Source: a virus
IMG/VR virus record: IMGVR_UViG_3300045988_021519
Location: 1 to 37,044 of that record
Length of the DNA: 37,044 nt
Strand: one strand, 5' to 3'
This document shows positions 4,364-37,044 of the stretch, piece by piece. How positions within the stretch are numbered: position 1 is the stretch's first letter; each line of letters opens with the position of its first letter. The position numbers and the translations under genes were made by a program. The notes beneath the pieces are model-generated. The model saw only the letters and a program-made list of their open reading frames with translations. It was not told the origin of the DNA and did not search any database.

Positions 4364-6754
4364 ATGGAAAAATACACCTTATCACTTGCAGGTTCTTCGG
4401 CGTCTCTGAAATGGAAGGCCGTACGCATGACTTGGGAAGCGTTTTTGGAAAGACTGGGAACGCCCGTTATCACTAACGAAACGGTACGCGAGTTCGATAG
4501 ACTGGACAAGCCTGCCAAATCGTCTTTGAAGGACGTAGGCGGATTCATGGCTGGCGAGCTTTCCGGTCCACAAAGACTTAAGAAAGCGGTTATGTCCCGC
4601 TCTATGATTACGCTAGATGTAGACTTTGGCGACGATCTTTTCCCGTTCGATTTTGCGGATCGCTTTCCGGGCGTAGCCGCTGCCGTCTACACTACTAGAT
4701 CAGACCGCCCCGGATCACGCCGTTACCGTCTTATCATGCCTTTCAAAGAAGAGGTTACAGACGTTACAATGTACGAAGCCGCGGCGCGTAAAGTAGCCGA
4801 GTTGTTAGGTATAGACCTATTCGATAAAACGACCTTCCAACCGGAACGTATGATGTACTGGCAATCTCTTTCCAAAGACCAAACAGGGCTTTTCGAAGTA
4901 TTCGAAGGCGAGCCGATCAGCGCGGAGTATCTAATAGGTTTGTACGGAGACAACGAAGAATGGCGCGACGTGCGCAAATGGGCGTTCCACTCCGAGACGG
5001 AACGTGATACCCGTTCTATCATTAGTAAAGAGATGGCGAAAGACCCCCGCGATAAAGAGGGCCTAGTAGGCGCGTTTTGTCGCTCGTACACGATACAGGC
5101 AGCAATAGACAAGTACCTTTCAGACGTTTACACAGAAGCAGAAAACGGCCGTTATACGTACGTTCTTGGATCGGGCGCTGCCGGGCTGGTAGTGTACGAC
5201 GACGTGCTTTGTTTTTCTCACCACTCAACCGACCCGATCGGAGACGGACACGCATACAACGCTTATGATTTGGTGCGTGTGCACAAGTTTGGGCACCTGG
5301 GTAAGGAAGACAGCACCCGCGAGATGAACAAGCTAATTTGCGCCGATAAAGAATGCGTTAAAGATATGGTAGCCGTGGACGATGATCTAGCCGACTTCGA
5401 GGAGTACACGGACGAGGTTAAGAGCGACGCACAGACCGCCGCCGAACTTGTTTGGGACTTGGACAGAAAAGGCGATAAATTATGTACCGTTCGCAACTTC
5501 GTTAATGCCTTCAAATGTGATCCGCTATTAAATGATCTGCTAGCATACGACTTGTTTCTCGATACGATCGTGTACACCCGTACGCCGTTCTTCTCGAAAA
5601 ACATAAAGAAGGGCGATATGTTGGACGACACAGCAGTAGCGATTATCCGTGGACGCATTGAGGTTTTGCACGGTATTTATAATGACAGCAAATTAAACGA
5701 CGCGTTGGAAAAGGTTTGCAGCGAAAATGCTTTCCATCCTATCAAAAAATATCTAGAGGCGCAAAGGTGGGACGGTGTGAAGCGTATTGATAATTTCTTG
5801 GTTGACTACATGGGCGCAGAGCCTAGTATATATGTTTCCGAGGCGTTCCGTAAAATGTTGGTTGCGGCTGTTACTAGAGTTTATGAGCCGGGCCACAAAT
5901 TTGATACGGCGCTTGTTATGTATTCAGGACAGGGCGCGGGAAAGTCCACGCTTATACAGGCGTTGTCTAAAGGATGGTTCAACGATTCATTAACGGACGT
6001 GTCCGGGCAGAAAGCGTATGAAGCAATACAGCATGCTTGGATCGTGGAGTTAGCCGAGTTGTCAGCCCTTCGCCGTTCGGACGTGGAAGCTACTAAGAAC
6101 TTCATAAGCAAACGTGAAGATACGTACCGTAGTGCATACGCCCGCCGGGTAAAGACACACCGCAGACAATGCGTATTTTTCGGGTCTACAAACGACGATG
6201 AGTTTTTGAAGGACAAGACCGGAAACCGCCGTTTCTTCCCGATAGAAGTTTGCGCCAACAAGAACACGCACAAGCTGTTTGAAAAGTCTTTTGAGGCGGT
6301 GGTAGACCAACTTTGGGCGGAAGCAATGGAACTGTACATGTTGGGCGAAAGTCTTGTTTTGTCTGACGAAGCCGAAGCGATCGCTAACGAAGGCCGCAAA
6401 GAATTTACAGAAGAAAGCCCGCTAGTAGGTATTATAGAGAACTATCTAGATAAGCTTTTCCCGGCTGACTACGAAGACCGCACCGAACAACAACGAGCCG
6501 ACTTCCTAGCGGGATCATTGGATGAGATCGGTGACACAGTTAAAAACGAGTTCTGTTTAATGGAGCTTTGGGTAGATGCCCTGGGGCGCAGGAAAGAAGA
6601 TTATACAAGCGCGAAGGGCCGCGAACTTGCAGCGGCTATGAGACAATTAGGCGGATGGTATAAAGGAAAGTTAAAAAGAACTAAATTATACGGCGTACAA
6701 GTAGTTTATATCCGGGAAAGAAGCAAGGAAAGCAAAAAATTACTATCTTTGTGA
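4364..6754 (+). CDS. Primase-helicase (N-terminal primase/polymerase-like domain, C-terminal VirE/D5-type P-loop NTPase)
   Basis: 796 aa. N-terminal acidic motif ITLDVDFGDD; Walker A YSGQGAGKST; Walker B-like WIVELAEL; downstream FFGSTND and GNRRFFPIEV, typical of VirE/D5-like helicases. Confidence 0.9.
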   Translation: MEKYTLSLAGSSASLKWKAVRMTWEAFLERLGTPVITNETVREFDRLDKPAKSSLKDVGGFMAGELSGPQRLKKAVMSRSMITLDVDFGDDLFPFDFADRFPGVAAAVYTTRSDRPGSRRYRLIMPFKEEVTDVTMYEAAARKVAELLGIDLFDKTTFQPERMMYWQSLSKDQTGLFEVFEGEPISAEYLIGLYGDNEEWRDVRKWAFHSETERDTRSIISKEMAKDPRDKEGLVGAFCRSYTIQAAIDKYLSDVYTEAENGRYTYVLGSGAAGLVVYDDVLCFSHHSTDPIGDGHAYNAYDLVRVHKFGHLGKEDSTREMNKLICADKECVKDMVAVDDDLADFEEYTDEVKSDAQTAAELVWDLDRKGDKLCTVRNFVNAFKCDPLLNDLLAYDLFLDTIVYTRTPFFSKNIKKGDMLDDTAVAIIRGRIEVLHGIYNDSKLNDALEKVCSENAFHPIKKYLEAQRWDGVKRIDNFLVDYMGAEPSIYVSEAFRKMLVAAVTRVYEPGHKFDTALVMYSGQGAGKSTLIQALSKGWFNDSLTDVSGQKAYEAIQHAWIVELAELSALRRSDVEATKNFISKREDTYRSAYARRVKTHRRQCVFFGSTNDDEFLKDKTGNRRFFPIEVCANKNTHKLFEKSFEAVVDQLWAEAMELYMLGESLVLSDEAEAIANEGRKEFTEESPLVGIIENYLDKLFPADYEDRTEQQRADFLAGSLDEIGDTVKNEFCLMELWVDALGRRKEDYTSAKGRELAAAMRQLGGWYKGKLKRTKLYGVQVVYIRERSKESKKLLSL

Positions 6755-7832: not shown

Positions 7833-7836
7833 AAGT

Positions 7837-8031
7837 ATGGTACAGATACTAAGAGCTAATATAGTAACCACAGCGGGAACTATTGTAAGAGACTACACAG
7901 AAGTAGCGGACGAACTAGGGGCCTACATGGTAGAGGATATAGAGGCGGAACGGCGGTATATCGCCGAGTGCCAGACCCGAATGGGATTTACGGTTAAGCG
8001 GGTTAATCTAACTTATGTAACGAAGGAATGA
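7837..8031 (+). CDS. hypothetical protein (64 aa)
   Basis: ATG 7837 (MVQILRANIV...). The longer track ORF starts at TTG 7786 and overlaps the small membrane ORF. Confidence 0.5.
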   Translation: MVQILRANIVTTAGTIVRDYTEVADELGAYMVEDIEAERRYIAECQTRMGFTVKRVNLTYVTKE

Positions 8032-9058: not shown

Positions 9059-9103
9059 CTAAGAGCGTTTAATGCAGATCAAAGTTAAGAGTTTACCCTA
9101 TAT

Positions 9104-9134
9104 TTTGGTAGTATGAAAAGAACCCGTATCTTTG
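9104..9134 (+). promoter_or_regulatory. Bacteroidota-type promoter cassette, copy 2
   Basis: TTTG 9104-9107, a 19-nt spacer, TATCTTTG 9127-9134. The stretch 9125-9168 is 44/44 identical to 6912-6955. Confidence 0.7.
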
Positions 9135-9174
9135 AAATGTCAAAAGGAAATAAACCAATTAAAAATTAAAGAAT

Positions 9175-9351
9175 ATGGAAATTAACAGATACGCATGGTT
9201 ACTTAAGGTTGTTGATCATTCAGAACCGGAACTTAAAATTAGTTATGTAGACCTGTACGGGTTAACAGAGGGCGAAGCAGTAGCAAAGGTACACGAGATA
9301 AAGGATAAATCTCTACAGTGTAAATTATACAGGCTATACGTAGTTATATAA
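9175..9351 (+). CDS. hypothetical protein (58 aa)
   Basis: ATG 9175 comes right after the duplicated leader (MEINRYAWLLKVVDHSEPELK...YVVI*). Below the track size cutoff. Confidence 0.55.
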   Translation: MEINRYAWLLKVVDHSEPELKISYVDLYGLTEGEAVAKVHEIKDKSLQCKLYRLYVVI

Positions 9352-9367
9352 ACAAGAAGAATTTAAT

Positions 9368-9410
9368 TAACCCGGGCGGGTAACACCGCCCATAACACCC
9401 AAAAGATATG
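9368..9410 (+). repeat. Intergenic hairpin element, copy 1
   Basis: TAACCC-GGGCGG-GTAACA-CCGCCC-ATAACACCCAAAAGATATG. Stem GGGCGG (9374-9379) pairs with CCGCCC (9386-9391). It is homologous to 9633-9675. Confidence 0.8.
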
Positions 9411-9632
9411 AAAGCAACTATCGAATTAACAAGAAGAACCGCTCTAGAGGATGTAATAATCAGAAATGACAATTCCGAAAAATCACGGATGATCAAGGAA
9501 AAACAAAGAGCGCTTGAAAACGCTAGAGAAAACGCCGAGTATTACCGGTCCATAGGGCAAAATGAGTTTGCAGATAATGAAGCTAGCAGGGCGCGTTTAT
9601 TGGAAAGACAAATCAAATCATTAAAAAATTAA
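9408..9632 (+). CDS. hypothetical coiled-coil protein (74 aa)
   Basis: The ATG is embedded at the 3' end of hairpin element copy 1. The sequence is charged and helical. Confidence 0.6.
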   Translation: MKATIELTRRTALEDVIIRNDNSEKSRMIKEKQRALENARENAEYYRSIGQNEFADNEASRARLLERQIKSLKN

Positions 9633-9675
9633 TAACCCGGCGGGGTAACACCCGCCATAACACCCAAAAGATATG
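9633..9675 (+). repeat. Intergenic hairpin element, copy 2
   Basis: TAACCC-GGCGGG-GTAACA-CCCGCC-ATAACACCCAAAAGATATG. Stem GGCGGG (9639-9644) pairs with CCCGCC (9651-9656). Two stem positions are swapped relative to copy 1, with compensating changes. Confidence 0.8.
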
Positions 9676-10110
9676 AAAAAGTTAATCAGTATTTTAGCAG
9701 TAGTTTTGTTATCAGTTAGCGCAATGGCGCAAGTATCAACCGCAAGCGGGAGTCTAAAAACGCTTAAGTCTTTCCGCCTGGGAGTTTGTAAGATCGTGGA
9801 AGTCACGAAGGGCGACGCGGTAACCTATCAGATCACCGGACAAGCAGCCGGAACAACCTCAATAGAATTGAATGTAGCGTTAGGAGATGCGGACAAGGCG
9901 GTTACGACGCTATTAAGTCTGGCCGAGTACAAACCATCAAGTAGCGACGAAGTTGTAAACCTCAACAACCCAGGGGATCACACTGCGCAGTATTGGAAAC
10001 TTAATGCGGTTTGGATGATCCAAAGTACAGGAAAGCAATTCACCCTTAACGTCTCTAGGGGCGAATTAAAGAAGATGGCAGAAGCAATTAATAAATCTCT
10101 AAACAAATAA
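9673..10110 (+). CDS. secreted/periplasmic protein with cleavable signal peptide
   Basis: Starts MKKLISILAVVLLSVSAMA|QVST, a classic n-h-c signal peptide with an AxA site and Gln at +1. Confidence 0.7.
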   Translation: MKKLISILAVVLLSVSAMAQVSTASGSLKTLKSFRLGVCKIVEVTKGDAVTYQITGQAAGTTSIELNVALGDADKAVTTLLSLAEYKPSSSDEVVNLNNPGDHTAQYWKLNAVWMIQSTGKQFTLNVSRGELKKMAEAINKSLNK

Positions 10111-10114
10111 GATC

Positions 10115-10543
10115 ATGGAAGTATATAGAAACAATAGCGGCGAGATCCTGGAAGTATCTAAATTACCTAACGGACGAATAAAGTTATCACAGGTGTGGAA
10201 CGCAGGCCGCCGGGAGTCAAAGAGCGTAGGCACCGTCAAGGAACTAAACGCGTTCTTATACAACAATGGTTACCACCTTGCAATGACAGAACGTAGCAAA
10301 CGTTTTGGCCGTAACTTCACGGAGAACGATCTAAGCGATGAACTGCTGATGATCATACCTAACTCGGAGCTGGCCGTAGAGCATAATGGAGATATTTTTT
10401 CTTGTTGGTTTCTGGCCGACAATGCCGACGGAACGGTAGAGGTATCATGCAACGCACCATTTGCCGCGGTTAACTGGCAAGGGTATAAAGTGGTAACGTT
10501 GAACCTTTCAGATTTAATTGTAATTCAAGGAGGGATCGAATAA
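10115..10543 (+). CDS. hypothetical protein (142 aa)
   Basis: ORF 4 nt after the previous stop. Its stop overlaps the next start (TAATG). Confidence 0.65.
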   Translation: MEVYRNNSGEILEVSKLPNGRIKLSQVWNAGRRESKSVGTVKELNAFLYNNGYHLAMTERSKRFGRNFTENDLSDELLMIIPNSELAVEHNGDIFSCWFLADNADGTVEVSCNAPFAAVNWQGYKVVTLNLSDLIVIQGGIE

Positions 10544-10971
10544 TGGTAGATTTCAATAAGAAACTAAAGGTAGACCGTATCAATCTATTTTGTGATGTGG
10601 TTACGAAAATGGCGCACGGCACGCCCGCCGAGGGCTACGCGATTGGAGACGCTATAAAGCAATTGCCCGAGAACTTGCAACAGTATTTAATATCAGAAGT
10701 ACCGGACAGCATACTACGCAGGGAATACAGCCGCCGGGAACTGCACAAGGGCGACAACGTAGCGTTCGAAGGGGCTGACACGATAGCCGAGGTTTACAAG
10801 GAAGAAGTGTTTAACGCTAACCGGGCGGAAGCCCTGAAGGACTTGTTAGGGATCAAATCAAAATTCCCCGATATACTGGACATAATCGCCGAGGTCCTTA
10901 AGTGTTTCCCGGAGCGGTACACGCTAGATGATATTTACGATATGTTATATAAAAAAGATTTAGGATTATGA
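10543..10971 (+). CDS. hypothetical protein (142 aa)
   Basis: Translationally coupled on both sides, with AAGGAGGG upstream. Confidence 0.65.
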   Translation: MVDFNKKLKVDRINLFCDVVTKMAHGTPAEGYAIGDAIKQLPENLQQYLISEVPDSILRREYSRRELHKGDNVAFEGADTIAEVYKEEVFNANRAEALKDLLGIKSKFPDILDIIAEVLKCFPERYTLDDIYDMLYKKDLGL

Positions 10972-11447
10972 GCGAAGGATTCAAAAAATCTAGTTCGTAC
11001 TCTGACGAGTGGTACACACCAAAGTTCATTATAGACTGTTTAGGCAAATTTGATTTAGACCCGTGCGCGCCTAGCGTACCATTATTCAAAACCGCCGAAG
11101 TAATGTATAACGAGTTCGACGACGGACTAGCGCAAAAATGGGAGGGGCGTGTGTGGCTTAACCCGCCCTATTCCCGCCCGCTGATAGGCAAATTTATGCG
11201 CCGGATGACAGAGCACAACCGGGGGACGGCCCTAATCTTTTCGAGGACTGACACGGAACTGTTTCACACGGAAGTGTTCAACAAAGCGACCGCGGTTAAG
11301 TTCCTCAAAGGTAGAATCAAGTTTCTAAGGCCTGACGGTACAGAAGCCGGGACGCCCGGATGTGGTAGCGTGTTAATCGCGTACGGCGAGGAGGACGCGA
11401 ATATATTAGAATGTAATGAACTGGAAGGAAAATTTGTAAGATTATGA
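10968..11447 (+). CDS. DNA N6-adenine methyltransferase, phage Dam (PF05869-like) type
   Basis: Motifs SDEWYTP, FDLDPCA and VWLNPPYS, in a protein of about 160 aa, as in the small phage Dam family. Confidence 0.85.
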   Translation: MSEGFKKSSSYSDEWYTPKFIIDCLGKFDLDPCAPSVPLFKTAEVMYNEFDDGLAQKWEGRVWLNPPYSRPLIGKFMRRMTEHNRGTALIFSRTDTELFHTEVFNKATAVKFLKGRIKFLRPDGTEAGTPGCGSVLIAYGEEDANILECNELEGKFVRL

Positions 11448-11662
11448 AAACAATAAGAGTAGACGGACGTACATACGCCGCGGTGGAAGTAGACGAGAAC
11501 GTAGCATGCAAAGGCTGCATATTTTATACGGTCGGGTGGGACATGAATACACCACGATGCACCGCGGCTAATATTCCGGAGTTTCAATGTGTTTCAGTAG
11601 TGGGAGATGAGGAGAAGAACGTAATATTTAAATTAATGGCTAACAATGTTACAGAGGAGTAA
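11444..11662 (+). CDS. small four-Cys (zinc-ribbon-like) protein, paralogue of 13975..14178
   Basis: GRTYAAVE...CKGCIF...C...C...NVIFK. The same ordered signature occurs in the 13975 ORF. Confidence 0.6.
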   Translation: MKTIRVDGRTYAAVEVDENVACKGCIFYTVGWDMNTPRCTAANIPEFQCVSVVGDEEKNVIFKLMANNVTEE

Positions 11663-13019
11663 TTTACACGGCTATCAGCGTACCGCCGTCCAGCACATCA
11701 AGGATCACCCCGACGCGGCTCTATTCCTTGATATGGGACTGGGAAAGACGGTGAGCACGCTAACAGCCGTAGCCGATCTCATCAACGAGTTCGAGGTTAC
11801 GAAGGTGCTGATAGTAGCGCCAAAGCGAGTAGCCGAAATGACCTGGGGCGATGAGATCGAGAACTGGGCGCACATCTCGCATTTACGTTTGTCAGTCATT
11901 AAAGGCACCGCCAAACAACGCGAGATCGCCGCACGGGCGGAAGCCGACGTTTACACAGTGAGCCGTGACAATCTCGTATGGCTTCTGCAAATGTGGGGCG
12001 GGTCTAAGGTACCGTACGACATGTTAGTACTGGACGAGTTAAGCAGCTTCAAGAACCACCAATCTAAACGCTTCAAGGCCGCAAAGATAATACGCCGGAG
12101 TGTTAGCCGGGTGGTGGGTCTGACGGGTACGCCCGCGCCAAACGGACTAATAGACCTATGGGCGCAGATGTATTTAGTCGATGGCGGGCAAAGACTGGGA
12201 AAGACAATCACCGATTACCGGGCCAACTACTTCAGACCGGGCGCGCAGAACGGCGGCATAGTGTACGAGTACAAACCACTCGCAACAACCGAGGCAGTAT
12301 TAGGTGAGAAGATAGCCGACATCACGTTATCAATGAAAGCCCTAGACTTCCTGGACATGCCGGAACTCACATACCTCAACAACTACGTGGAGTTATCGCC
12401 AAAGGTGAAGAAGCAGTACGATAAGTTCGAAGAGGATCAAGTGCTAGAGCTTATGCAGGAAGAAGAAATTACAGCGCTAAGCGCCGCCGCCCTATCAAAC
12501 AAGCTCTTACAGTTCGCAGGCGGTGCGATCTACGACGCAGACCGGAACGTACATACCGTGCACGATGAGAAGCTAGAGACGTTAGTAGAGATGGTAGAGG
12601 CTGCGAACGGGTCGCCCGTACTGGTGGCGTACAACTTCCAGCACGAGAAGGCGCGCATACTAGAGGCTCTAAAGAGTTTCGGGGCGGAAGCCCTCGAAGG
12701 CGTGGATAGCGTACGCAGGTGGAACGAAGGGAAAATACCCGTCTTAGTGACACACCCGGCTAGCGCGGGGCACGGTCTGAATATGCAGAAGGGCGGCAAC
12801 CGGATAATATGGTACGGTACTACTTGGAGCTTGGAGTTATACCAGCAGTTCAACGCGCGGTTATGGAGGCAGGGACAAAAGAATAGCGTGTTTGTCCATC
12901 ACATCATAACGCGGGGTACGATTGACGAAAGGGTTATAGCGGCTCTAAGCGGAAAGGCCGATACACAAAATGGTTTAATGGATATGGTTAAAGAACTAAT
13001 TAAAAAATATAGATTATGA
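11646..13019 (+). CDS. SNF2-family helicase/ATPase
   Basis: Motif I DMGLGKT; motif II LVLDELSSF; motif III LTGTPAPNGLIDLW; C-terminal HPASAGHGLNMQ and RLWRQGQ. Confidence 0.9.
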   Translation: MLQRSNLHGYQRTAVQHIKDHPDAALFLDMGLGKTVSTLTAVADLINEFEVTKVLIVAPKRVAEMTWGDEIENWAHISHLRLSVIKGTAKQREIAARAEADVYTVSRDNLVWLLQMWGGSKVPYDMLVLDELSSFKNHQSKRFKAAKIIRRSVSRVVGLTGTPAPNGLIDLWAQMYLVDGGQRLGKTITDYRANYFRPGAQNGGIVYEYKPLATTEAVLGEKIADITLSMKALDFLDMPELTYLNNYVELSPKVKKQYDKFEEDQVLELMQEEEITALSAAALSNKLLQFAGGAIYDADRNVHTVHDEKLETLVEMVEAANGSPVLVAYNFQHEKARILEALKSFGAEALEGVDSVRRWNEGKIPVLVTHPASAGHGLNMQKGGNRIIWYGTTWSLELYQQFNARLWRQGQKNSVFVHHIITRGTIDERVIAALSGKADTQNGLMDMVKELIKKYRL

Positions 13020-13741
13020 AATACATGGGTAGTAAACGGCGGATAGCCGAACAAATTTTGGCCATTATATTAGAAGGTAGAAAAGATGGTCAATACTATG
13101 TAGAGCCATTTTGCGGCGGGTGTAATACGATAGATAAAGTACCGGGTAATAGAATAGCTAATGATAGCAACCCATATTTAATTGCGATGTGGGAAGCGTT
13201 ATCCTGGGGGTGGGACCCGCCAAAGACCATAAGCAGGGAGCACTATCTCGACGTGCGGACATGTTATAAACAAAATTCGGACAAATATCCGATGCATTAT
13301 ATCGGGTGGGTTGGTTTTATGGGGTCTTTTAACGGCACGTTTTGTTGCGGGTACACGGGCCATTCAGTTATGGACGCGCGCGGGGGAGTTACGGACTACA
13401 TAGGCCGAGCAGTCCGTAACATATTAGCACAAGTTCCCCTACTAGACGGGGTACAATTCACTAATTGCGATTATGCAGATATGATTATCCCCCCTAATTC
13501 TATTATATATTGCGACCCTCCGTATGCGGGAGTAACAAAGTATGAATACCCGATAGACCACGAAAAATTCTGGGCTTGGTGCCGGGAGAAAGTGGCCGAA
13601 GGGCATAAGGTGTTTGTTTCTGAATACAACGCCCCGGACGATTTCGGTTGCGTGTGGGAACAAAAGCTTAGGGTATGTGTTACTCCAGGTGGGAATAAAC
13701 AAGCGATAGAGAAATTATTTATTCATAAATCACAATTATAG
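13016..13741 (+). CDS. DNA adenine methyltransferase, D12 class (Dam-like)
   Basis: N-terminal KYMGSKRR, AdoMet motif YVEPFCGG and catalytic CDPPYAG. Sequence specificity cannot be read from the sequence. Confidence 0.85.
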   Translation: MKYMGSKRRIAEQILAIILEGRKDGQYYVEPFCGGCNTIDKVPGNRIANDSNPYLIAMWEALSWGWDPPKTISREHYLDVRTCYKQNSDKYPMHYIGWVGFMGSFNGTFCCGYTGHSVMDARGGVTDYIGRAVRNILAQVPLLDGVQFTNCDYADMIIPPNSIIYCDPPYAGVTKYEYPIDHEKFWAWCREKVAEGHKVFVSEYNAPDDFGCVWEQKLRVCVTPGGNKQAIEKLFIHKSQL

Positions 13742-13744
13742 AGT

Positions 13745-13987
13745 ATGAAAACAACAAATTACAAAGTGGGCGATATTGTAGAACTGGTAGACGGTGTACA
13801 ATACGTGTATCGAGGAAAGAACCGGAAAGAAGGGTACCATGTGTATGATCCGGTACTGCCGGACAGGTTATCAACTTTTTGGACGATCTCGGAAGAAAAG
13901 TGTGTAAAGTACGGTTATAATATAGGTGCAGTTCCGCTTGTTTGGAAAATGGATGCAAAATTGATAAAACGGGTATGGAAAAAGTAA
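13745..13987 (+). CDS. hypothetical protein (80 aa), N-terminal paralogue of 14175..14657
   Basis: MKTTNYKVGDIVELVDG... aligns with MKTTDYKKGNVVLLIDG...; both also have a KR.W.K motif near residue 75. Confidence 0.6.
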   Translation: MKTTNYKVGDIVELVDGVQYVYRGKNRKEGYHVYDPVLPDRLSTFWTISEEKCVKYGYNIGAVPLVWKMDAKLIKRVWKK

Positions 13988-14178
13988 AGCTTATATTTTT
14001 CGAGCCAGGACAGAAGGCCGAGCACGAAGGCGTGACATACATAGCCGAGTTACAAGCGAAAGGCGGACTATGTGCCGGGTGCGCATTCAACAAGCGCGGC
14101 GAGCCGTGCATGTGTCCTAGGGGATGGGTGTGCATAGATATAATTGATAGTAGTAACATAATATTTAAGAATGTATGA
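13975..14178 (+). CDS. small four-Cys protein, paralogue of 11444..11662
   Basis: GVTYIAEL...CAGCAF...CMC...C...NIIFK. The start is ambiguous (ATG 13942 or 13975); 13975 minimises overlap with the upstream gene. Confidence 0.55.
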   Translation: MEKVKLIFFEPGQKAEHEGVTYIAELQAKGGLCAGCAFNKRGEPCMCPRGWVCIDIIDSSNIIFKNV

Positions 14179-14657
14179 AAACAACAGATTACAAGAAAGG
14201 TAATGTAGTATTATTGATTGATGGCGGACGCAATGCGCGCTTCGAGTATTTAGGCGAAGTGTCCGTTAAGGGCGTTGTGTCGAACGCATATAGACCGCTA
14301 GACGGAAAGACCGGGTACGCCACAAGTGAGACCGACGCCGAGGGTGAGTTCGTGCCGTTCGCCAGCAAGTTAGCCGTCGAGGTGGTAAAGAGGAAGTGGT
14401 ATCAGAAGATAGGCGATTGGTGGAAGGCGTCGAACCGCTGGAAGCATTTCTTATTTGCGATCCCGCTTGGCGCGGTGTGCGGCGCTCCGTTCACTACGGG
14501 CGTATGTTTGGGTATGGTAGTTAAGGATCATTTGTACGGAGGTCGGGCCGATTTTGTGGACTTCCTTCTAACCGCGGTTGGCGGGGCGATCGGGCACGGC
14601 GTTATGTTGGCCATTGATTTGGACTATGTGATAGGGTTTTTAATTAGTTTAATTTAA
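14175..14657 (+). CDS. membrane protein: soluble N-domain (paralogue of 13745) plus C-terminal transmembrane helices
   Basis: ATGA overlap with the upstream gene. C-terminal hydrophobic segments are FLFAIPLGAVCGAPFTTGVCLGMVV and FLLTAVGGAIGHGVMLAI...IGFLISLI. Confidence 0.65.
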   Translation: MKTTDYKKGNVVLLIDGGRNARFEYLGEVSVKGVVSNAYRPLDGKTGYATSETDAEGEFVPFASKLAVEVVKRKWYQKIGDWWKASNRWKHFLFAIPLGAVCGAPFTTGVCLGMVVKDHLYGGRADFVDFLLTAVGGAIGHGVMLAIDLDYVIGFLISLI

Positions 14658-14663
14658 AAAGTT

Positions 14664-14951
14664 ATGGAAAATATGAATTACTTATTTGAGATGAGACAGA
14701 TTGAAGAGATGCAGAAAGCAACGGGCCGTTTCAAGACAGCCCTAGGGAAAGAGGGTAAACCGCAGTGCGAACGTATTACAAAGCTCGCGCCCGATAAAGT
14801 GGAGGTTTACGCCGAGCGTGTACCGCGTACGGCTAAAGAGATTACAACCATTACGATTTACAGGAAGAGCGAGCCGGAACGCCGGGTGGACTTATCGAGA
14901 GTTGAGGCGCTACGGCTGATCGGTGAACTTAAAGAAGCATTGAAGCTATGA
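14664..14951 (+). CDS. hypothetical protein (95 aa)
   Basis: ORF in the operon; its stop overlaps the next ATG. Confidence 0.6.
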   Translation: MENMNYLFEMRQIEEMQKATGRFKTALGKEGKPQCERITKLAPDKVEVYAERVPRTAKEITTITIYRKSEPERRVDLSRVEALRLIGELKEALKL

Positions 14952-15049
14952 TGAAGGAATTTATGAAATGGCTAGGGCAAATGGTCCTGGCGATAGCGGC
15001 GGGGATCGCGCTTGGTTGTATTTTAGTATGTATCTTAAATAATTTATAG
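14948..15049 (+). CDS. possible 33-aa membrane peptide
   Basis: ATGA overlap. It encodes MMKEFMKWLGQMVLAIAAGIALGCILVCILNNL, ends 1 nt before the next ATG, and fills an otherwise unexplained 100-nt gap. Confidence 0.45.
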   Translation: MMKEFMKWLGQMVLAIAAGIALGCILVCILNNL

Positions 15050-15050
15050 T

Positions 15051-15590
15051 ATGCCGACACCATATATTAAGAAAAAACAGAGAAAAGTGTTGCTTATCGA
15101 AGATATGGCACGAGTTTATAATCTTCATGCGTTTTTCATCTTCAACTGGCTTGAAGCGAACGGCGTGAAGTACGCCAAGGTGAAGGGCAAACCGTTTCAC
15201 GCCGTAAATGCCGAGATATTCTGCGAGGTGATCCGGGATATAATGTACGCGGCTAGCAGGGTGCGTGATGACAGGAATGTCCGGACCGACCCGGAACGCA
15301 TACCGACAGTAGAGAATATGCTATACCGTGACAAGGATAAGAAGCGTGTAGGACCTTACGAGAATGACGATATAGAGCGGCCGATCTACACGAGCGGGGA
15401 CACCGAGACGAACAAATATGGCATAGAGGTTTCAATGCTGTACCGGGTGAATATGTACTGCGATGGTAGTAGGACGCTAGACAAGCTGAACCACCGTACT
15501 TTGAGATGGGAAAACATAGAAGGGGCGGAGAAATGGAAATGTAAAGAAATTTTGGACGACTGGAAAGTTTTATACGGGTTGATTATGTAG
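15051..15590 (+). CDS. hypothetical protein with an N-terminal excisionase/MerR-like HTH resemblance; last gene before the late region
   Basis: VLLIEDMARVYNLHAFFIFNWLEANGVKYAKVKGKPF resembles the HTH_17 pattern (L.I.E.A......T....W...G.....K..GK.F). The match is weak and judged by eye only. Confidence 0.6.
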   Translation: MPTPYIKKKQRKVLLIEDMARVYNLHAFFIFNWLEANGVKYAKVKGKPFHAVNAEIFCEVIRDIMYAASRVRDDRNVRTDPERIPTVENMLYRDKDKKRVGPYENDDIERPIYTSGDTETNKYGIEVSMLYRVNMYCDGSRTLDKLNHRTLRWENIEGAEKWKCKEILDDWKVLYGLIM

Positions 15591-15597
15591 GAATTGG

Positions 15598-15630
15598 GGG
15601 GTTAATGTATAAAAACGTTAACCCCTTTTT
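15598..15630 (+). terminator. Rho-independent terminator (first of a tandem pair)
   Basis: GGGGTTAA (15598-15605) pairs with TTAACCCC (15618-15625), followed by TTTTT. Confidence 0.75.
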
Positions 15631-15655
15631 GTGTTAAAACCGTTAACACGCTTTT
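15631..15655 (+). terminator. Second hairpin of the tandem terminator
   Basis: GTGTTAA (15631-15637) pairs with TTAACAC (15643-15649), followed by GCTTTT. Confidence 0.55.
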
Positions 15656-15667
15656 GGCGCACTTCTC

Positions 15668-15697
15668 AAAAAACTTTGTGAGAAAAAACTTTGTGAG
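15668..15697 (+). repeat. Perfect 15-bp tandem direct repeat AAAAAACTTTGTGAG x2
   Basis: 15668-15682 is identical to 15683-15697. A partial third copy (AGAAAAGTTT) follows. The region is non-coding. Confidence 0.9.
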
Positions 15698-15838
15698 AGA
15701 AAAGTTTAATTTTAACGGTATTTTAGCTAAAAAGCCCATTTTTGACAAAAAAGTAGTGAAAACGTCTTTTACATTGTCATTTCATGTTTTACGGCTGACC
15801 CGCCCCACAAGACGCAGAACGCATTTTTCAAGTTTTTG

Positions 15839-16064
15839 ATGTAAATGGTTAAAATTTGTTTCTTTTACACTTAACTTGCTTATTTATAGTACTTTATACT
15901 GTAATATAGTGTATTTGTAAAAGATGTAATGATATATACTAATTAGTAACTATTAATAGGTAATATATATAGTTAACATAAATATACTATTGTTATTTTA
16001 AATAATAAATATATGGTATTTTTTAAATATATTCTATAGGGAAACTGCATTTTTACCTTTACAT
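15839..16064. repeat. AT-rich non-coding element, copy A (paralogue of 35618..35841)
   Basis: Conserved blocks sit at the same offsets as in copy B: ATGTAAAT...TTAAAATTTGT.TCTTT.ACACTTAAC (33/40 identical) at offset 0; TAGTACTTTAT at 48; TGTAAAAGATGTAA at 77; TAG.GAAACT at 198; TTACCTTTACAT at 214. The core of roughly 120 bp is almost pure A/T. Confidence 0.85.
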
Positions 16065-16100
16065 CGTTTACAATTGGGCTGAAACGCCCTGTTCATCGGG

Positions 16101-16169
16101 GTTTTGGGTGTGAATGATAGTTTTGGTAGGCGGAAAGATGGCGTTTTGGGCGGAAAAAGCGTATTTTTG
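16101..16169 (+). promoter_or_regulatory. Putative late promoter region with three phased GTTTTGG boxes
   Basis: TTTTGG at 16102, 16121 and 16144 (19 and 23 nt apart). TTTTGG(TA)GGCGGAAA occurs twice. A -7-like TATTTTTG lies at 16162-16169, 23 nt before the ATG at 16192. The -33/-7 spacing is non-canonical. Confidence 0.4.
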
Positions 16170-16191
16170 CATAGTTGTAAATAAAAATTAT

Positions 16192-16881
16192 ATGGCTACA
16201 AAGAAGAAAGAAATTATAGAAACGAAGGAAGCGGTACAGCTGCCAAAGCCCGAGAAGGTTAGGCCGGATTACGCGCACTTCCAATTAGCTCCCACATACG
16301 CGACCACTAAGTATCTGGCGGATTCGTTTGAATACACCAAGTGCTACCAGGTCGCTACGGCGCATTATGGTATGACGCCTATCTGGCAGGAGCCCCAAGA
16401 ACTTTGGGAGGCGTACGCGATTTATTCGGCGTGGTGCGAGGCTACGCCCGTTATAACACAAGAGGCAGTAAAGTCCGGTAACATGGCTGGAACGCTCTAC
16501 GAAGTGCCAAAGAAGCACCTTCAATCGGAGGGCGAGTTCTGTATGTTCCTGGGGGCGAATCCCATATACTTAAGCAACCGCCGCTCCACCTACGCCGAGA
16601 ACCTCAAGGAGTTCGACCTGACGATATGCGCGGACTTCATAGCGGTGATCGACAGGATACGCGAAGCAATCGCACAGGACCTTGATCAGGGCGCGACGGT
16701 GGGACAGTTCGACGCCAACTACGTTCGTGCTCTACGGGGCATTAAAACGCAAATGGACTACACTTCTAACGGCGAAGCCATCAAGGGCGGTTTGACTGTA
16801 AATGTCACCGACCCGAAAGTACGCGCTAAGGTTAGTTCGATTAAGAACTTCAAGAAGGATCATAAAGAGGAGGATAAGTAA
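16192..16881 (+). CDS. putative terminase small subunit (gp3-like DNA-packaging protein)
   Basis: Lies immediately upstream of TerL and is coupled to it (TAATG). It has a basic N-terminus, and the segment PQELWEAY..YSAWCEA...SEGEFCMFLGANPIYL resembles gp3-type small terminases. The track start GTG 16114 lies in the promoter region; ATG 16192 is preferred. Confidence 0.55.
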   Translation: MATKKKEIIETKEAVQLPKPEKVRPDYAHFQLAPTYATTKYLADSFEYTKCYQVATAHYGMTPIWQEPQELWEAYAIYSAWCEATPVITQEAVKSGNMAGTLYEVPKKHLQSEGEFCMFLGANPIYLSNRRSTYAENLKEFDLTICADFIAVIDRIREAIAQDLDQGATVGQFDANYVRALRGIKTQMDYTSNGEAIKGGLTVNVTDPKVRAKVSSIKNFKKDHKEEDK

Positions 16882-32025: not shown

Positions 32026-32526
32026 ATGGAAAAAATTACAGATATAGGGCAGATCGTTTCATTGTGTCAAACAATGACTAACCTAAAATTGGATATTGTG
32101 TGCGGGGCGGATCGCCTGTTTGCACAACGCTGGTATGAAGAACGTTATTTGACAGGACAACACACCCGTTACGTTATGAAGCCGGGGTTGTTCATCAACT
32201 CTATCGAAGACGGAAGAGTGTACCGCGCATTCAACACAAGCGACGAGAAGGCCGTAGAGTTCATGGAAGCAAATGAAAATTACAAGGACTATTTTATAGA
32301 CTTGCAAGCAGAACCAGAAGCTCCCGTAGAAGGCGAACCAGAAGTTCCCGTAGAAGGCGAACCGGAAGCGCCTGTAGAAGGTGAACCGGAAACAGAGCCG
32401 GAACTATCAGAGGAAGAGATCGCGGCAGCAAAACGTAGTGAAGCGGCTAAAAAGGCAGCGGCTACACGCGCAGCGAAAAAGGCGGAAGCAGAAGCAGCCG
32501 AGGGTCTGAAAGAGTTCGAAGAATAA
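32026..32526 (+). CDS. acidic protein with (EPEAPVEG)3 repeat and Ala/Lys-rich tail
   Basis: 166 aa. It contains a 24-nt tandem repeat x3 at 32311-32382 and a C-terminal AAAKRSEAAKKAAATRAAKKAEAEAAEG. Confidence 0.65.
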   Translation: MEKITDIGQIVSLCQTMTNLKLDIVCGADRLFAQRWYEERYLTGQHTRYVMKPGLFINSIEDGRVYRAFNTSDEKAVEFMEANENYKDYFIDLQAEPEAPVEGEPEVPVEGEPEAPVEGEPETEPELSEEEIAAAKRSEAAKKAAATRAAKKAEAEAAEGLKEFEE

Positions 32527-35535: not shown

Positions 35536-35568
35536 CCTTTCATCTTTTATAAATGCCCTTTCATCTTT
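35536..35568 (+). repeat. Direct repeat CCTTTCATCTTT x2, 21 bp apart
   Basis: 35536-35547 and 35557-35568 are identical 12-mers, in non-coding DNA directly after the last late gene. Confidence 0.85.
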
Positions 35569-35583
35569 CGCACTTGAAAACCT

Positions 35584-35614
35584 AAAACGCTGATTCATAA
35601 CGAGTTGGCGTTTT
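35584..35614 (+). terminator. Weak terminator-like hairpin after the late operon
   Basis: AAAACGC (35584-35590) pairs with GCGTTTT (35608-35614) across a 17-nt loop. A marginal call. Confidence 0.3.
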
Positions 35615-35617
35615 TGC

Positions 35618-35841
35618 ATGTAAATAATTAAAATTTGTATCTTTCACACTTAACCCACTAATAACTAGTACTTTATCTATCAATATATATCTAATGTAAA
35701 AGATGTAAAGATAATATATAGAGCTAACAGAGAAATATTAGATTATATATAAAATATGTAAATATATGAATTAATATGTGAATGAATTTATAGAAATATT
35801 TAAATATAAACTAATAGAGAAACTATCCCTTACCTTTACAT
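35618..35841. repeat. AT-rich non-coding element, copy B (paralogue of 15839..16064)
   Basis: It has the same ordered conserved blocks and offsets as copy A. ATGTAAA-type boxes are at 35618, 35694, 35703 and 35756 (forward) and 35834-35841 (inverted). Confidence 0.85.
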
Positions 35842-35960
35842 TTCACCTGTTTTTTCCACTTAACTAGCTGATACGCACACAGTTAGGGCGTTAAACATCC
35901 GCTTAAAAAGGGCTATTCGTTGTTTACGCTGTTATCAAACCTTCAAAACCGTTAATCAGA

Positions 35961-36021
35961 GTTAAAATACTAAAGTTTTTTGGGAAATAGTTTTGTAGTT
36001 CAAAATAAAGCTGTACCTTTG
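35961..36021 (+). promoter_or_regulatory. Bacteroidota-type promoter cassette, copy 3 (early promoter)
   Basis: TTTG 35992-35995, an 18-nt spacer, TACCTTTG 36014-36021. Homologous to 6861-6921. Confidence 0.7.
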
Positions 36022-36037
36022 TAACATCGAAAGAGAA

Positions 36038-36732: not shown

Positions 36733-37044
36733 AAGTAGTAATCGAATTAATCGGAAATGAGAGTAGAGAAAGTTTGTTGGCAACGTCTAATTATTTGCGC
36801 GAGCTGGCGGGAGAAACCATACCGGAAGTAACGGAACGTAAAACCGATCTTGACAAGTTAGCGGACGCTGTTGTAGAAGCAACAAAAGTGGAGGCAGAAG
36901 AGAAGCCTAAAACAGTGTCCGAAATGGTAGAATCTGAACGCGCAAAAACCCGCGCTAAACGTTCGGCAGAAGCAGCAGCAGAAGCCAAGGCAGCAGAAGC
37001 CAAGGCAGCAGAAGCCAAGGCAGCAGAAGCCAAGGCAGCAGAAG
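36729..37044 (+). CDS. 5' part of the wrap-around (AAEAK)n protein gene (continues at 1..401)
   Basis: ATG 36729, MKVVIELIGNESRESLLATSNYLRELAGE...SERAKTRAKRSAEAAAEAKAAEAK..., open to the last base of the window. Confidence 0.75.
   Translation, partial: MKVVIELIGNESRESLLATSNYLRELAGETIPEVTERKTDLDKLADAVVEATKVEAEEKPKTVSEMVESERAKTRAKRSAEAAAEAKAAEAKAAEAKAAEAKAAE
36966..37044 (+). repeat. Start of the coding 15-nt tandem repeat that continues at 1..212
   Basis: Four full CAGCAGAAGCCAAGG units plus 9 nt. The stretch 36991-37044 is identical to 1-54. Confidence 0.95.

What the first reader, a model, noticed from the sequence alone, without database searches (positions are those of the whole stretch)
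35618..35841. AT-rich element copy B: extra ATGTAAAT box and an embedded promoter-like arrangement upstream of the early promoter
Copy B has the same block order as copy A. It carries five ATGTAAA-type boxes: forward at 35618, 35694, 35703 and 35756, and inverted at 35834. Its left conserved box overlaps a plausible promoter: TTTG 35613-35616, a 21-nt spacer, then TATCTTTC 35638-35645, one mismatch from TAnnTTTG. This promoter would fire into the AT-rich core toward a T-run at 35850-35856. In copy A the equivalent -7 is degenerate (TTTCTTTT). Either B produces a short AT-rich non-coding transcript that A does not, or the promoter-like box is really a protein-binding site common to both copies. 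The bona fide early promoter lies 170 bp further downstream (35992-36021). B is therefore positioned like an upstream control region, or an origin next to the replication-gene operon.
Basis: partly seen in the sequence, partly recalled or inferred. Interest (0 to 1): 0.65.

Follow-up and report, generated by a model that had tools for sequence, protein, structure and literature searches.

The report
Paired replication-origin-like elements in Bacteroides phage

Summary
The sequence features are real. Copies A (about 15764-16072) and B (about 35542-35841) are significantly similar (z=17.8 against dinucleotide shuffles). Thirteen of the 15 near-perfect box matches in the genome lie in them. Their cores are the two least stable duplex stretches of the genome.

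The window is a complete Bacteroides siphophage genome of about 37 kb. A lies at the early-to-late module junction and B at the late-to-early junction. Both copies are present in all 19 GenBank relatives, in dozens of IMG/VR relatives, and in two more distant groups that carry different boxes.

Each element has an inverted box pair, two tandem boxes, an AT core and inverted boxes. This is the layout of SaPI origins, which are read by self-loading SF3 helicases. The phage's primase-helicase is homologous to SaPI1 Rep1 (E=2e-73).

Residue 778 in its C-terminal domain predicts the box type. Arg goes with TGTC-type boxes (18/18) and non-Arg with TGTA-type boxes (25/26). No label permutation out of 2000 reached this association. 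It held in 12/12 independent GenBank phages and arose at least 5-6 times on the gene tree.

The promoter reading is not supported. The "-7 box" is an inverted box, its last base varies G/T/C, and A and B do not differ in this among relatives. Function remains inferred.

The parts
35542..35572 (-). Copy B: two upstream inverted, degenerate boxes (ATCTTTTATA at 35542, ATCTTTCGCA at 35563)
   Evidence: Matches to the box 10-mer with 1 and 2 mismatches. Equivalent flanking boxes are seen in type III relatives.
35611..35654 (+).
   Evidence: Diversity is pi=0.106 against 0.24-0.31 at 4-fold sites. Its half-sites vary together among relatives (TGTCAA..TTGACA, TGTAAA..TTTACA).
35666..35676 (+). Conserved TAGTACTTTAT motif in the linker. 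It is shared with copy A (15887-15897), and a TAGTACT core is present in BC679P3.
35695..35712 (+). Copy B central tandem boxes TGTAAAAG ATGTAAAG AT (type I iterons)
   Evidence: Perfect matches to the consensus. The type co-varies with residue 778 of the primase-helicase.
35713..35823 (.). Copy B AT-rich core, a putative DNA unwinding element. It includes the boxes found only in B and invariant there, ATGTAAATA (35756) and ATGTGAATGA (35777), and the ATAGAGAAAC motif (35814-35823).
   Evidence: Second least stable 100-bp duplex of the genome: -97.3 kcal against a mean of -137.5, sd 9.3. Diversity pi=0.110, well below 4-fold sites. The box at 35756 is nearly invariant in the 30 B copies (28 exact, 2 with one substitution) and keeps an A at the type-defining position whatever the type.
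35832..35841 (-). Copy B right inverted box ACCTTTACAT. This is the only clear one, because the right arm of B is degenerate.
   Evidence: Right arm against the reverse complement of the central arm: 11.3/16 on average in B copies, 13.4/16 in A copies and 9.5 +/- 1 for shuffled arms.
15764..15773 (-). Copy A upstream inverted box GTCTTTTACA
   Evidence: 1 mismatch.
15833..15875 (+). Copy A left block: TTTTTG, forward box ATGTAAAT (15839), spacer TTAAAATTTGT, inverted box TTCTTTTACA (15860-15869)
   Evidence: (family D5).
15916..15933 (+). Copy A central tandem boxes TGTAAAAG ATGTAATG AT
15934..16045 (.). Copy A AT-rich core (putative unwinding element), ending in CTATAGGGAAAC (16034-16045)
   Evidence: Least stable 100-bp duplex of the genome, -93.6 kcal, 11% GC. 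Diversity pi=0.227, near neutral, so composition rather than sequence is kept.
16055..16072 (-). Copy A right inverted tandem boxes ACCTTTACAT CGTTTACA, the reverse complement of the central arm
   Evidence: 14/16 match to the reverse complement of the central arm in the window. The arms co-vary by type among relatives, for example L028 TTGTCATAGATGGAAAGATA against TATCTTTCCATCTATGACAA.
4364..6754 (+). Primase-helicase (796 aa), the proposed initiator. It has an N-terminal primase-like part, a VapE-like SF3 helicase core and a C-terminal domain (aa 701-796 = 6464-6751). The specificity residue 778 is Val in this window, codon 6695-6697.
   Evidence: PHROG DNA primase and helicase families. Pfam VapE-like_dom E=1.3e-76. 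Match to PDB 7pds_A, SaPI1 Rep1, E=2.1e-73. Association of residue 778 with box type. Codon checked.
35992..36021 (+). Canonical Bacteroides-type early promoter TTTG-N18-TACCTTTG. It is a neighbour of copy B, not part of the element.
   Evidence: Perfect consensus match, one of 5 in the window. It lies in a repeated 73-nt promoter block (D2/D4) with pi=0.075.

Best explanation
Copies A and B are two iteron-plus-unwinding-element replication origins, or one origin plus an auxiliary initiator-binding site. They belong to a lytic Bacteroides siphophage of about 37 kb and sit at the two junctions between the early (replication) module and the late (structural and lysis) module.

Each element has the same layout: an inverted pair of single boxes, two tandem 8-9-bp boxes (TGTAAAAG ATGTAAAG), an AT-rich core of about 110 bp that is the easiest DNA in the genome to melt, and the same boxes in inverted orientation on the far side.

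Proposed mechanism. The C-terminal, probably winged-helix, domain of the phage's primase-helicase reads the boxes. This protein is a SaPI-Rep-like, VapE-type SF3 helicase. Oppositely oriented boxes would position helicase assemblies on both sides of the core. The core melts, the fused primase primes, and the T7-like PolA, gp2.5-type SSB and exonuclease carry out elongation.

Residue 778 of the C-terminal domain acts as a specificity determinant. Arg accompanies boxes with C at position 4 (a G on the other strand). Ala, Gln, Val, Ser or Pro accompanies boxes with A.

What is shown: the anatomy, the conservation, the duplex instability, the homology of the protein, and the covariation between protein and DNA. 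What is inferred: binding, melting, initiation, and which of the two copies fires.
For: 1. Context. All genes are on the + strand. The early module encodes an exonuclease, a gp2.5-like SSB, PolA and a primase-helicase. terS starts about 120 nt after A, and lysis genes end just before B.

2. Conservation. Both copies are present in 19/19 GenBank relatives and in about 30 IMG/VR relatives. They also occur at the same two positions in diverged groups with other boxes: BC679P3 with ATGTCATAG x2 and the 70%-identity group with TGTAATAG ATGTAATAG. A 33-kb group has the same layout with GCACAGTAA ACACAGTAA.

3. Box clustering and A/B similarity are far above chance.

4. The cores are the two least stable duplex segments, 4.3-4.7 sd from the genome mean.

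5. The right arm is the reverse complement of the central arm, and the arms change together by type. A and B of one genome usually share the type.

6. The protein is homologous to SaPI1 Rep1 (7PDS identified in PMC9371898). That paper describes SaPI origins as iterons on both sides of a central AT-rich region. At least two iterons on each side point in opposite directions, and they are read by the C-terminal winged-helix domain of the Rep.

7. Covariation. Among 2399 variable amino-acid columns of 27 proteins, residue 778 of the primase-helicase is the best predictor of box type. Its p is 4.8e-6, the next column is at 6e-4, and no label permutation out of 2000 reached it.

8. The type is not a clade of the gene. 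It changes at least 6 times on the tree, and within-type distance is about equal to between-type distance.

9. Independent set: 12/12 GenBank phages follow the rule.

10. Distant groups follow it too. BC679P3 has TGTC boxes and Arg. Type III has TGTA boxes and Pro or Ala.

11. The C-terminal model has a helix-helix-helix-hairpin order, and residue 778 lies in the hairpin.
Against: There is no experimental evidence of binding or initiation.

The C-terminal fold is only moderately confident (mean pLDDT 65.7), and Foldseek gave no significant match (best E=0.19). The winged-helix assignment therefore rests on secondary-structure order and analogy.

Unlike SaPIs, the elements are not next to the rep gene. 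A is 9.1 kb downstream of it and B about 5.7 kb upstream.

The right arm of copy B is degenerate, and its core is sequence-constrained (pi 0.11 against 0.24-0.31 neutral). A pure unwinding element does not explain that constraint, so B may do something else or something extra.

One type I phage carries Arg778 (contig 038600). Late-module proteins at 18-34 kb were not included in the association scan. GC skew gives no origin signal, because every gene is on one strand.
Confidence: 0.7

Rival explanations
1. The boxes do bind the primase-helicase (or another phage protein), but the elements are not initiation sites. Alternatively, only A is an origin and B is an auxiliary site. B could be a replication-fork barrier that triggers the theta-to-concatemer switch, as proposed for SPP1 oriR. 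It could be a cis enhancer like P4 crr. It could also be an operator that couples replication to the early/late transcription switch at the module junctions.
For: B has a degenerate right arm, while A has a nearly complete inverted arm. The core of B is sequence-constrained and carries B-only boxes (nearly invariant among the 30 copies) that keep the same base at the type-defining position whatever the type. Both elements sit exactly at operon boundaries. There is a precedent in SPP1: two similar origin-like regions are bound by one protein, and oriR is proposed to be a fork barrier (PMC6316719).
Against: The central boxes and the extreme duplex instability are kept in both copies, which fits two working origins equally well. 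Nothing in the sequence distinguishes firing from binding.
Confidence: 0.17
2. The left block of B is a Bacteroides-type promoter (TTTG-N21-TATCTTTC) that transcribes the AT-rich core up to the T-run. It would produce a short non-coding RNA, or provide transcriptional activation of the origin, that copy A lacks.
For: The motif is present with one mismatch. Some relatives have a perfect TATCTTTG. The spacer TTAAAATTTGT is almost invariant. Transcription into an AT-rich region activates the T7 primary origin and lambda ori (own knowledge), so a promoter here would not conflict with an origin.
Against: The last base of the '-7' varies G/T/C and follows the box type. A and B copies carry the motif equally often among relatives. 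The spacer is 21 nt against 18-19 nt in the phage's perfect promoters, and about 24 comparable sites occur by chance. The motif is absent in BC679P3 and type III left blocks. The predicted RNA has no structure signal (z=+0.19), and no Rfam family matches.
Confidence: 0.06
3. The elements are packaging signals (pac sites) or other terminase recognition sites. This is suggested by copy A lying directly upstream of terS.
For: A lies about 120 nt upstream of terS. The pac regions of some phages, such as SPP1, have repeated boxes around bent AT-rich DNA near gene 1 (own knowledge).
Against: A second, equally conserved copy lies 19.8 kb away, at the end of the late module. No terS column tracks box type (best accuracy 0.76). 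A relative whose terS is only 66% identical keeps type I boxes (L048). The association is with the primase-helicase instead.
Confidence: 0.04
4. The inverted arms act through DNA or RNA structure, such as a cruciform or a single-strand hairpin, and not as protein sites. Alternatively, they are kept alike only by gene conversion and have no function.
For: The central and right arms of A pair in the single-strand DNA fold. The arms change together.
Against: The fold signal is weak (z=-1.71, with 13 of 200 shuffles as good). Arm matching is at the level of type rather than the individual sequence: own arm 13.41, other sequences of the same type 13.33. A structure or conversion model does not predict the link to a protein residue 8-9 kb away, nor the direct-repeat boxes and extra flanking boxes.
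Confidence: 0.03

Closest known systems
SaPI (Staphylococcus aureus pathogenicity island) replicons: Rep or PriRep self-loading SF3 helicase-initiator plus an iteron/AT-rich ori (PMC9371898)
   Same: The helicase core is homologous (7pds_A, E=2e-73). The primase is fused as in PriRep5. A C-terminal domain is implied in sequence recognition. The ori layout has short repeats on both sides of a central AT-rich region, with at least two on each side in opposite orientation. Initiator and repeat specificity are matched and differ between related elements.
   Different: The host is a lytic Bacteroides phage rather than a Gram-positive island. The boxes are 8-9 bp rather than penta- or hexanucleotides. 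There are two elements per genome, neither adjacent to the rep gene (9.1 kb and about 5.7 kb away). There is an extra inverted box pair (the left block) and other conserved motifs (TAGTACTTTAT, CTATAGrGAAAC). The C-terminal domain has no detectable sequence similarity to that of Rep1.
Bacillus phage SPP1 oriL / oriR (PMC6316719)
   Same: A lytic siphophage with two similar origin regions kilobases apart. Each has repeats plus an AT-rich unwinding element, and both are bound by one phage protein. One of them lies in or at the late region. The two are thought to have different roles.
   Different: The SPP1 initiator gp38 works with a DnaB-type helicase (gp40) and a loader (gp39), not with a self-loading SF3 primase-helicase. 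SPP1 oriL lies inside gene 38. Here both elements are intergenic, at the module junctions.
Satellite phage P4 ori + crr read by the alpha primase-helicase
   Same: One polypeptide combines primase, SF3-type helicase and a C-terminal winged-helix origin-binding domain. Two separate cis regions carry the same short repeats.
   Different: P4 crr is a cis enhancer made of direct repeats and is not a copy of the whole ori. Homology of the window protein to P4 alpha was not tested here.
Bacteroides primary-sigma promoters (-33 TTTG / -7 TAnnTTTG)
   Same: The left block contains TTTG and a near -7 motif. Genuine examples of this promoter type drive the phage's early genes.
   Different: The critical last G is missing or variable. 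The spacer is longer. The motif coincides with an inverted box and is not kept in distant relatives.

Membership tests
SaPI-type Rep/ori replicon (self-loading SF3 helicase-initiator with iteron origin) | The initiator is an SF3 (VapE-like) helicase homologous to SaPI Rep | tested here: met
   phmmer against PDB: 7pds_A (SaPI1 Rep1) E=2.1e-73, aa 386-712. Pfam VapE-like_dom E=1.3e-76.
SaPI-type Rep/ori replicon (self-loading SF3 helicase-initiator with iteron origin) | The primase is encoded next to the helicase or fused to it | tested here: met
   The N-terminal 4-317 aa match PHROG DNA-primase families (phrog_9765, E=6e-77). The fusion resembles PriRep5.
SaPI-type Rep/ori replicon (self-loading SF3 helicase-initiator with iteron origin) | A C-terminal winged-helix domain recognises the iterons | tested here: inconclusive
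   The AF2 model has mean pLDDT 65.7, with a helix-helix-helix-hairpin order. Foldseek found no significant hit. Strong indirect support comes from residue 778 tracking box type: p=4.8e-6, 0/2000 permutations, 12/12 in the validation set.
SaPI-type Rep/ori replicon (self-loading SF3 helicase-initiator with iteron origin) | The ori has iterons on both sides of a central AT-rich region, at least two per side, in opposite orientation | tested here: met
   Fully met in copy A: two forward boxes at 15916/15924 and two inverted at 16055/16063. Copy B has two forward boxes at 35695/35703 but only one clear inverted box at 35832. The cores are the least stable DNA of the genome.
SaPI-type Rep/ori replicon (self-loading SF3 helicase-initiator with iteron origin) | [quoted passage not shown] | tested here: not met
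   There are two elements. A starts 9.1 kb after the gene end (6754 to 15833). B lies about 5.7 kb upstream across the circular junction.
SaPI-type Rep/ori replicon (self-loading SF3 helicase-initiator with iteron origin) | Initiator-dependent binding, melting and replication of ori DNA | not testable with these tools
   This needs EMSA or footprinting, permanganate probing and replication assays.
Bacteroides -33/-7 promoter | A -7 motif TAnnTTTG and a -33 TTTG at the spacing used by proven or obvious promoters of the same genome | tested here: not met
   TATCTTTC lacks the final G. The spacer is 21 nt, against 18-19 nt for the perfect sites at 1601, 6891, 9104 and 35992. About 24 sites of equal quality occur in the window.
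Bacteroides -33/-7 promoter | The promoter motif is conserved among relatives, and specifically in B | tested here: not met
   The last base is T, C or G in both A and B copies. The motif is absent from BC679P3 and type III left blocks.
Bacteroides -33/-7 promoter | A transcript start downstream of the -7 motif | not testable with these tools
   This needs 5'-end sequencing.
SPP1-like two-origin arrangement | Two dispersed regions of like organisation (repeats plus AT-rich unwinding element) | tested here: met
   The SPP1 description is in PMC6316719.
SPP1-like two-origin arrangement | A gp38-type origin-binding protein with a DnaB-type helicase and loader | tested here: not met
   The replication genes found are a VapE-type primase-helicase, an SNF2-type helicase, PolA, a gp2.5-type SSB and an exonuclease. 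No match to a DnaB-type helicase or loader family appeared among the proteins scanned.
pac site / terminase small-subunit recognition site | The site co-evolves with terS or is unique near terS | tested here: not met
   No terS column tracks box type. The boxes are unchanged where terS is 66% identical (L048). A second copy lies 19.8 kb away.
Structured non-coding RNA | A match to a known RNA family, or a thermodynamic or covariation signal of structure | tested here: not met
   No Rfam hit at gathering threshold in the whole window. The RNA fold of 35646-35860 gives z=+0.19.

The most novel reading that the evidence does not exclude
A widespread group of gut Bacteroides siphophages uses a two-site origin system that brackets the late module. 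A would be a symmetric origin. B would be an asymmetric, sequence-constrained partner with its own B-only boxes, for example a second origin, a fork barrier or a replication-to-late-expression switch.

The initiator-to-iteron specificity would be reprogrammed in nature by a single residue. Arg778 would read the G opposite TGTC, and small or polar residues would accept TGTA. This would create replication-specificity ('incompatibility') types that have switched repeatedly among phages more than 90% identical. Such switching might avoid competition for, or parasitism of, the initiator during co-infection.
Probability: 0.3. Interest if true: 0.7.

Novelty: new variant of a known kind. Interest (0 to 1): 0.55.

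Why it matters
Replication origins of Bacteroides phages are, as far as the searchable literature shows, undescribed. These phages are abundant in sewage and human-gut viromes and are being collected as isolates.

The finding gives precise, testable coordinates for the cis elements. It names a candidate initiator domain and a one-residue/one-base recognition rule that a gel-shift with swapped residues could confirm quickly.

It would also extend the SaPI-type self-loading helicase-initiator mechanism to lytic phages of another phylum. It offers a natural example of repeated specificity switching and a second case, after SPP1, of a phage with two origin-like sites.

Practically, origin fragments are useful for building phage-dependent replicons, for 'origin-titration' resistance, and for interpreting coverage peaks in infection time-courses.

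Tried and rejected
1. A sigma-70 promoter and terminator scan of both regions. This promoter type does not apply to Bacteroides. Only one terminator-like hairpin turned up, at 15596-15627, outside the element.

2. An Rfam scan of the whole window gave nothing.

3. An RNA fold of the putative B transcript showed no signal. A DNA fold of the A arms was weak.

4. A single-subunit RNA polymerase was considered because CTATAGGGA resembles the T7 and SP6 promoter cores. None turned up in the PHROG and Pfam scans of the larger early and late ORFs (not every ORF was scanned), so the idea was dropped.

5. gp95 (14664-14951) has a bimodal identity distribution and looked like a candidate specificity factor, but it shows no association with box type.

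6. The proteins terS, gp109 (annotated HTH in relatives), gp179 and the DUF6549 protein showed no association.

7. A Foldseek search of the C-terminal-domain model against PDB gave no significant hit. The homologue search with the C-terminal domain alone returned only 7 close fragments, so the alignment for folding was shallow.

8. A second copy was sought in the 33-kb phage group. The 19-mer CATTTACCACTATAGAACG occurs once per contig. The other AT-rich minimum in the 12 kb examined is an ordinary promoter. The question is unresolved because the terS-upstream region of those phages was not fetched.

9. Literature searches for these phages and for Bacteroides phage origins found nothing.

10. 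GC skew is uninformative because all genes are on one strand.
Full report
WHAT THE WINDOW IS. The 37,044-base window is a complete, circularly permuted genome of a Bacteroides siphophage. Its two ends overlap in a 15-nt tandem repeat. It is 84-92% identical to 19 GenBank isolates grown on B. ovatus, B. koreensis and B. kribbi. All genes are on the + strand. An early replication module runs from about 36.0 kb across the junction to 15.6 kb. It encodes an exonuclease, a gp2.5-like SSB, PolA, a 796-aa primase-helicase, an SNF2-type helicase and a methyltransferase. The late module runs from terS (16192) to the endolysin and a DUF6549 protein (35533). Copy A (about 15764-16072) therefore sits at the early-to-late junction. 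Copy B (about 35542-35841) sits at the late-to-early junction, 150 bp upstream of the canonical early promoter at 35992-36021.

CHECK OF THE OBSERVATION. A and B align over about 240 nt. The local score is 83.5 against 25.0 +/- 3.3 for dinucleotide shuffles (z=17.8). The left block (z=15) and the middle block (z=8) carry the signal, and the AT core alone is marginal (z=2.9). ATGTAAA occurs 5 times in B against 0.19 expected locally. Of the 15 places in the genome that match the 10-mer boxes with at most one mismatch, 13 lie in the two elements. The promoter-like arrangement is not special: about 24 sites in the window match TTTG-N17-21-TAnnTTTG with at most one mismatch.

ANATOMY. I aligned 27 A copies and 30 B copies from IMG/VR relatives. 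This resolves each element into five parts:
1. A left block with a forward box (ATGTAAAT), an almost invariant TTAAAATTTGT, and an inverted box (CTTTnACA).
2. A linker containing TAGTACTTTAT.
3. Two tandem forward boxes, TGTAAAAG ATGTAAAG.
4. An AT-rich core of about 110 bp ending in CTATAGrGAAAC.
5. The same two boxes inverted.
Further degenerate inverted boxes lie upstream, at 15764, 35542 and 35563. In A copies the right arm matches the reverse complement of the central arm at 13.4 of 16 positions. In B copies the figure is only 11.3 of 16, and shuffled arms give 9.5 +/- 1. The cores at 15932-16031 and 35710-35809 are the two least stable 100-bp duplexes of the genome. They score -93.6 and -97.3 kcal against a mean of -137.5 (sd 9.3), and the next lowest, -109.7, is a promoter region.

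THE BOXES BEHAVE AS SITES FOR A TRANS-ACTING FACTOR. Among relatives more than 90% identical there are two box types. Type I is TGTAAAAG-ATGTAAAG. Type II is TGTCA(A/T)AG-ATGGAAAG. The inverted arms change with the central arms; for example L028 has TTGTCATAGATGGAAAGATA and TATCTTTCCATCTATGACAA. The A and B copies of one genome nearly always share the type, although they are 19.8 kb apart. More distant phages keep two elements at the same two junctions but with other boxes. BC679P3 has ATGTCATAG x2 with inverted TGACAT. A group at 70% identity has TGTAATAG ATGTAATAG plus TGTCACAG variants. A 33-kb group has the same layout with GCACAGTAA ACACAGTAA and inverted CTGTGC. Arm matching works at the level of type rather than the individual sequence: own arm 13.41, other sequences of the same type 13.33. 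This argues for shared recognition rather than hairpin pairing.

WHICH FACTOR. I tested 2399 variable amino-acid columns of 27 proteins from the early module and the junction flanks against box type in 34 genomes. One column stands out: residue 778 of the primase-helicase, in the motif KRTKLYG-X-QVVYIR of the C-terminal domain. Type II genomes have Arg in 10/10. Type I genomes have Ala, Gln or Val in 21/22. Fisher p is 4.8e-6, the next column is at 6e-4, and no label permutation out of 2000 reached the observed value. The association is not a clade effect. In the gene, within-type distance (0.052) equals between-type distance (0.049). The type changes at least 6 times on the neighbour-joining tree, and Arg778 follows it. 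It is not a linkage effect either, because the residue lies 8-9 kb from both elements and the genes in between show weaker associations. An independent set of 12 GenBank isolates follows the rule in 12/12: eight with Arg and type II, four with Ala or Ser and type I. The distant groups agree. BC679P3, with TGTC boxes, has Arg. The TGTA-box group has Pro or Ala. The combined count is Arg 18/18 in type II genomes and non-Arg 25/26 in type I genomes. Arg with a C:G pair fits the common arginine-guanine contact, but this is inference. No association was seen for terS, the small HTH-like protein gp109, gp179 or gp95.

WHAT THE PROTEIN IS. Residues 386-712 match PDB 7pds chain A at E=2.1e-73. That entry is the SaPI1 Rep1-DNA complex (PMC9371898). 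Pfam gives VapE-like_dom, and the N-terminal third matches phage primase families. PMC9371898 describes SaPI Reps as self-loading SF3 helicases that also act as initiators. They do so through a C-terminal winged-helix domain that reads short iterons. [quoted passage not shown] In SaPI5 the primase is fused to the Rep. Copy A reproduces that layout, and copy B does so on one side and partly on the other. An AlphaFold model of the C-terminal 137 aa has modest confidence (mean pLDDT 65.7, and 82-84 over residues 71-100). It shows a helix, helix, helix, beta-hairpin order with residue 778 in the hairpin. Foldseek gave no significant match, so the winged-helix fold remains unconfirmed.

MOST LIKELY MECHANISM. 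The primase-helicase binds the box arrays through its C-terminal domain. It assembles on both sides of the AT core, melts the core and primes DNA synthesis. The T7-like PolA, SSB and exonuclease set then replicates the genome. The shown parts are the anatomy, conservation, instability, homology and covariation. Binding, melting and firing are inferred. I put this explanation at 0.7.

WHY TWO COPIES. The two copies are probably not equivalent. A has near-symmetric arms and a core that drifts at about the neutral rate while staying AT-rich (pi 0.227 against 0.24-0.31 at 4-fold sites). That is what a pure unwinding element would show. B has a degenerate right arm but a sequence-constrained core (pi 0.110). 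The core holds two B-only boxes, ATGTAAATA at 35756 and ATGTGAATGA at 35777, which do not co-vary with type. SPP1 offers a precedent. Its oriL and oriR share repeats plus an AT-rich unwinding element and both bind gp38, and oriR is proposed to stall forks and trigger concatemer synthesis (PMC6316719). P4 ori and crr is another precedent, from my own knowledge.

THE PROMOTER READING. TATCTTTC is the inverted box of the left pair. Its last base is T, C or G in both A and B copies and becomes G when the box is the TGTCAAAG type. The degenerate TTTCTTTT of this window's A copy occurs in only 3 of 27 A copies. The spacer is 21 nt, against 18-19 nt in the phage's perfect promoters. The motif is missing in distant relatives. 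The putative RNA shows no structure, and no Rfam family matches. A weak promoter that helps to open the origin cannot be excluded, but nothing requires one. I put this reading at 0.06.

OTHER RIVALS. A pac site is unlikely. There are two copies, terS shows no association, and the boxes are unchanged where terS is 66% identical. A purely structural role or gene conversion does not explain the link to residue 778.

COMPARISON AND NOVELTY. The system works like a SaPI Rep/ori replicon and shares the homologous helicase. It fails one defining feature, a single ori immediately downstream of rep. It also differs in box length, in the extra left block and in being duplicated at the module junctions. 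It resembles SPP1 in having two origin-like sites but uses a different initiator family. I found no description of origins for Bacteroides phages. I rate it a new variant of a known kind. It is of moderate interest, mainly because it yields a directly testable one-residue/one-base recognition rule and precise origin coordinates for a common group of gut phages.

Noticed in passing
window 35972-35994, 6874-6890, 9074-9146; inverted at 15665-15700; L024 (BC679P3), region upstream of its A copy: The motif AAAGTTTTTTG(G/A)GA(A/G)A lies just upstream of the early promoters, inside a 73-nt repeated promoter block (D2: 6861-6933, 9074-9146, 35961-36033). It occurs twice in inverted orientation upstream of copy A (CTCAAAAAACTTTGTGAGAAAAAACTTTGTGAGAG). 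BC679P3 has four or more copies. It is a candidate operator of an early-gene regulator.
   Followed up: no
window 35745-35800: The AT core of copy B is sequence-constrained (pi 0.11 against 0.24-0.31 at 4-fold sites). It holds two boxes, ATGTAAATA at 35756 (nearly invariant among the 30 B copies) and ATGTGAATGA at 35777. They resemble the left-block forward box, are absent from copy A, and do not follow the box type. Their function is unknown.
   Followed up: partly
window 16034-16045 and 35814-35823; L024; L134 3490-3505 and 18745-18760; L171 2088-2100: The motif CTATAG(G/A)GAAAC lies at the right edge of the AT core. It is kept across all box types, including the 33-kb phages (CACTATAGAACG). 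It resembles T7 and SP6 promoter cores, but no single-subunit RNA polymerase gene turned up in the ORFs scanned. It may be a priming or melting start site.
   Followed up: partly
window 16080-16192: No canonical Bacteroides promoter (TTTG..TAnnTTTG) precedes terS or any late gene, so late transcription may use another signal. TTTTTGCAT, the first 9 nt of the left block of B, recurs at 16164, 28 nt before the terS ATG.
   Followed up: no
window 15596-15627: A terminator-like hairpin (13 pairs followed by a T-run) lies directly after the last early gene and upstream of copy A.
   Followed up: no
window 1-230 and 36936-37044 (ORF from about 36723 across the junction to about 400): A 15-nt tandem repeat encodes an (AEAKA)n low-complexity stretch. 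The window, many IMG/VR contigs and most GenBank records all break here. Other contigs break at the 24-nt repeat at 32306-32377. These look like assembly breakpoints rather than physical genome ends.
   Followed up: partly
window 13016-13741 and the equivalent position in L183-L194: The methyltransferase slot between the SNF2 helicase and the small genes is highly mosaic among isolates more than 90% identical. Depending on the phage it holds Dam, Dmt or two methyltransferases, or is absent. Several small early genes are also present or absent. This fits frequent module exchange within the early region.
   Followed up: no
IMG/VR contig 3300045988_038600 (L027, L053, L111): This is the single exception to the rule: Arg778 with type I boxes (TGTAAAAG / TGTAATAG-ATGTAAAG). 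It may be a recent recombinant or a tolerated mismatch.
   Followed up: no
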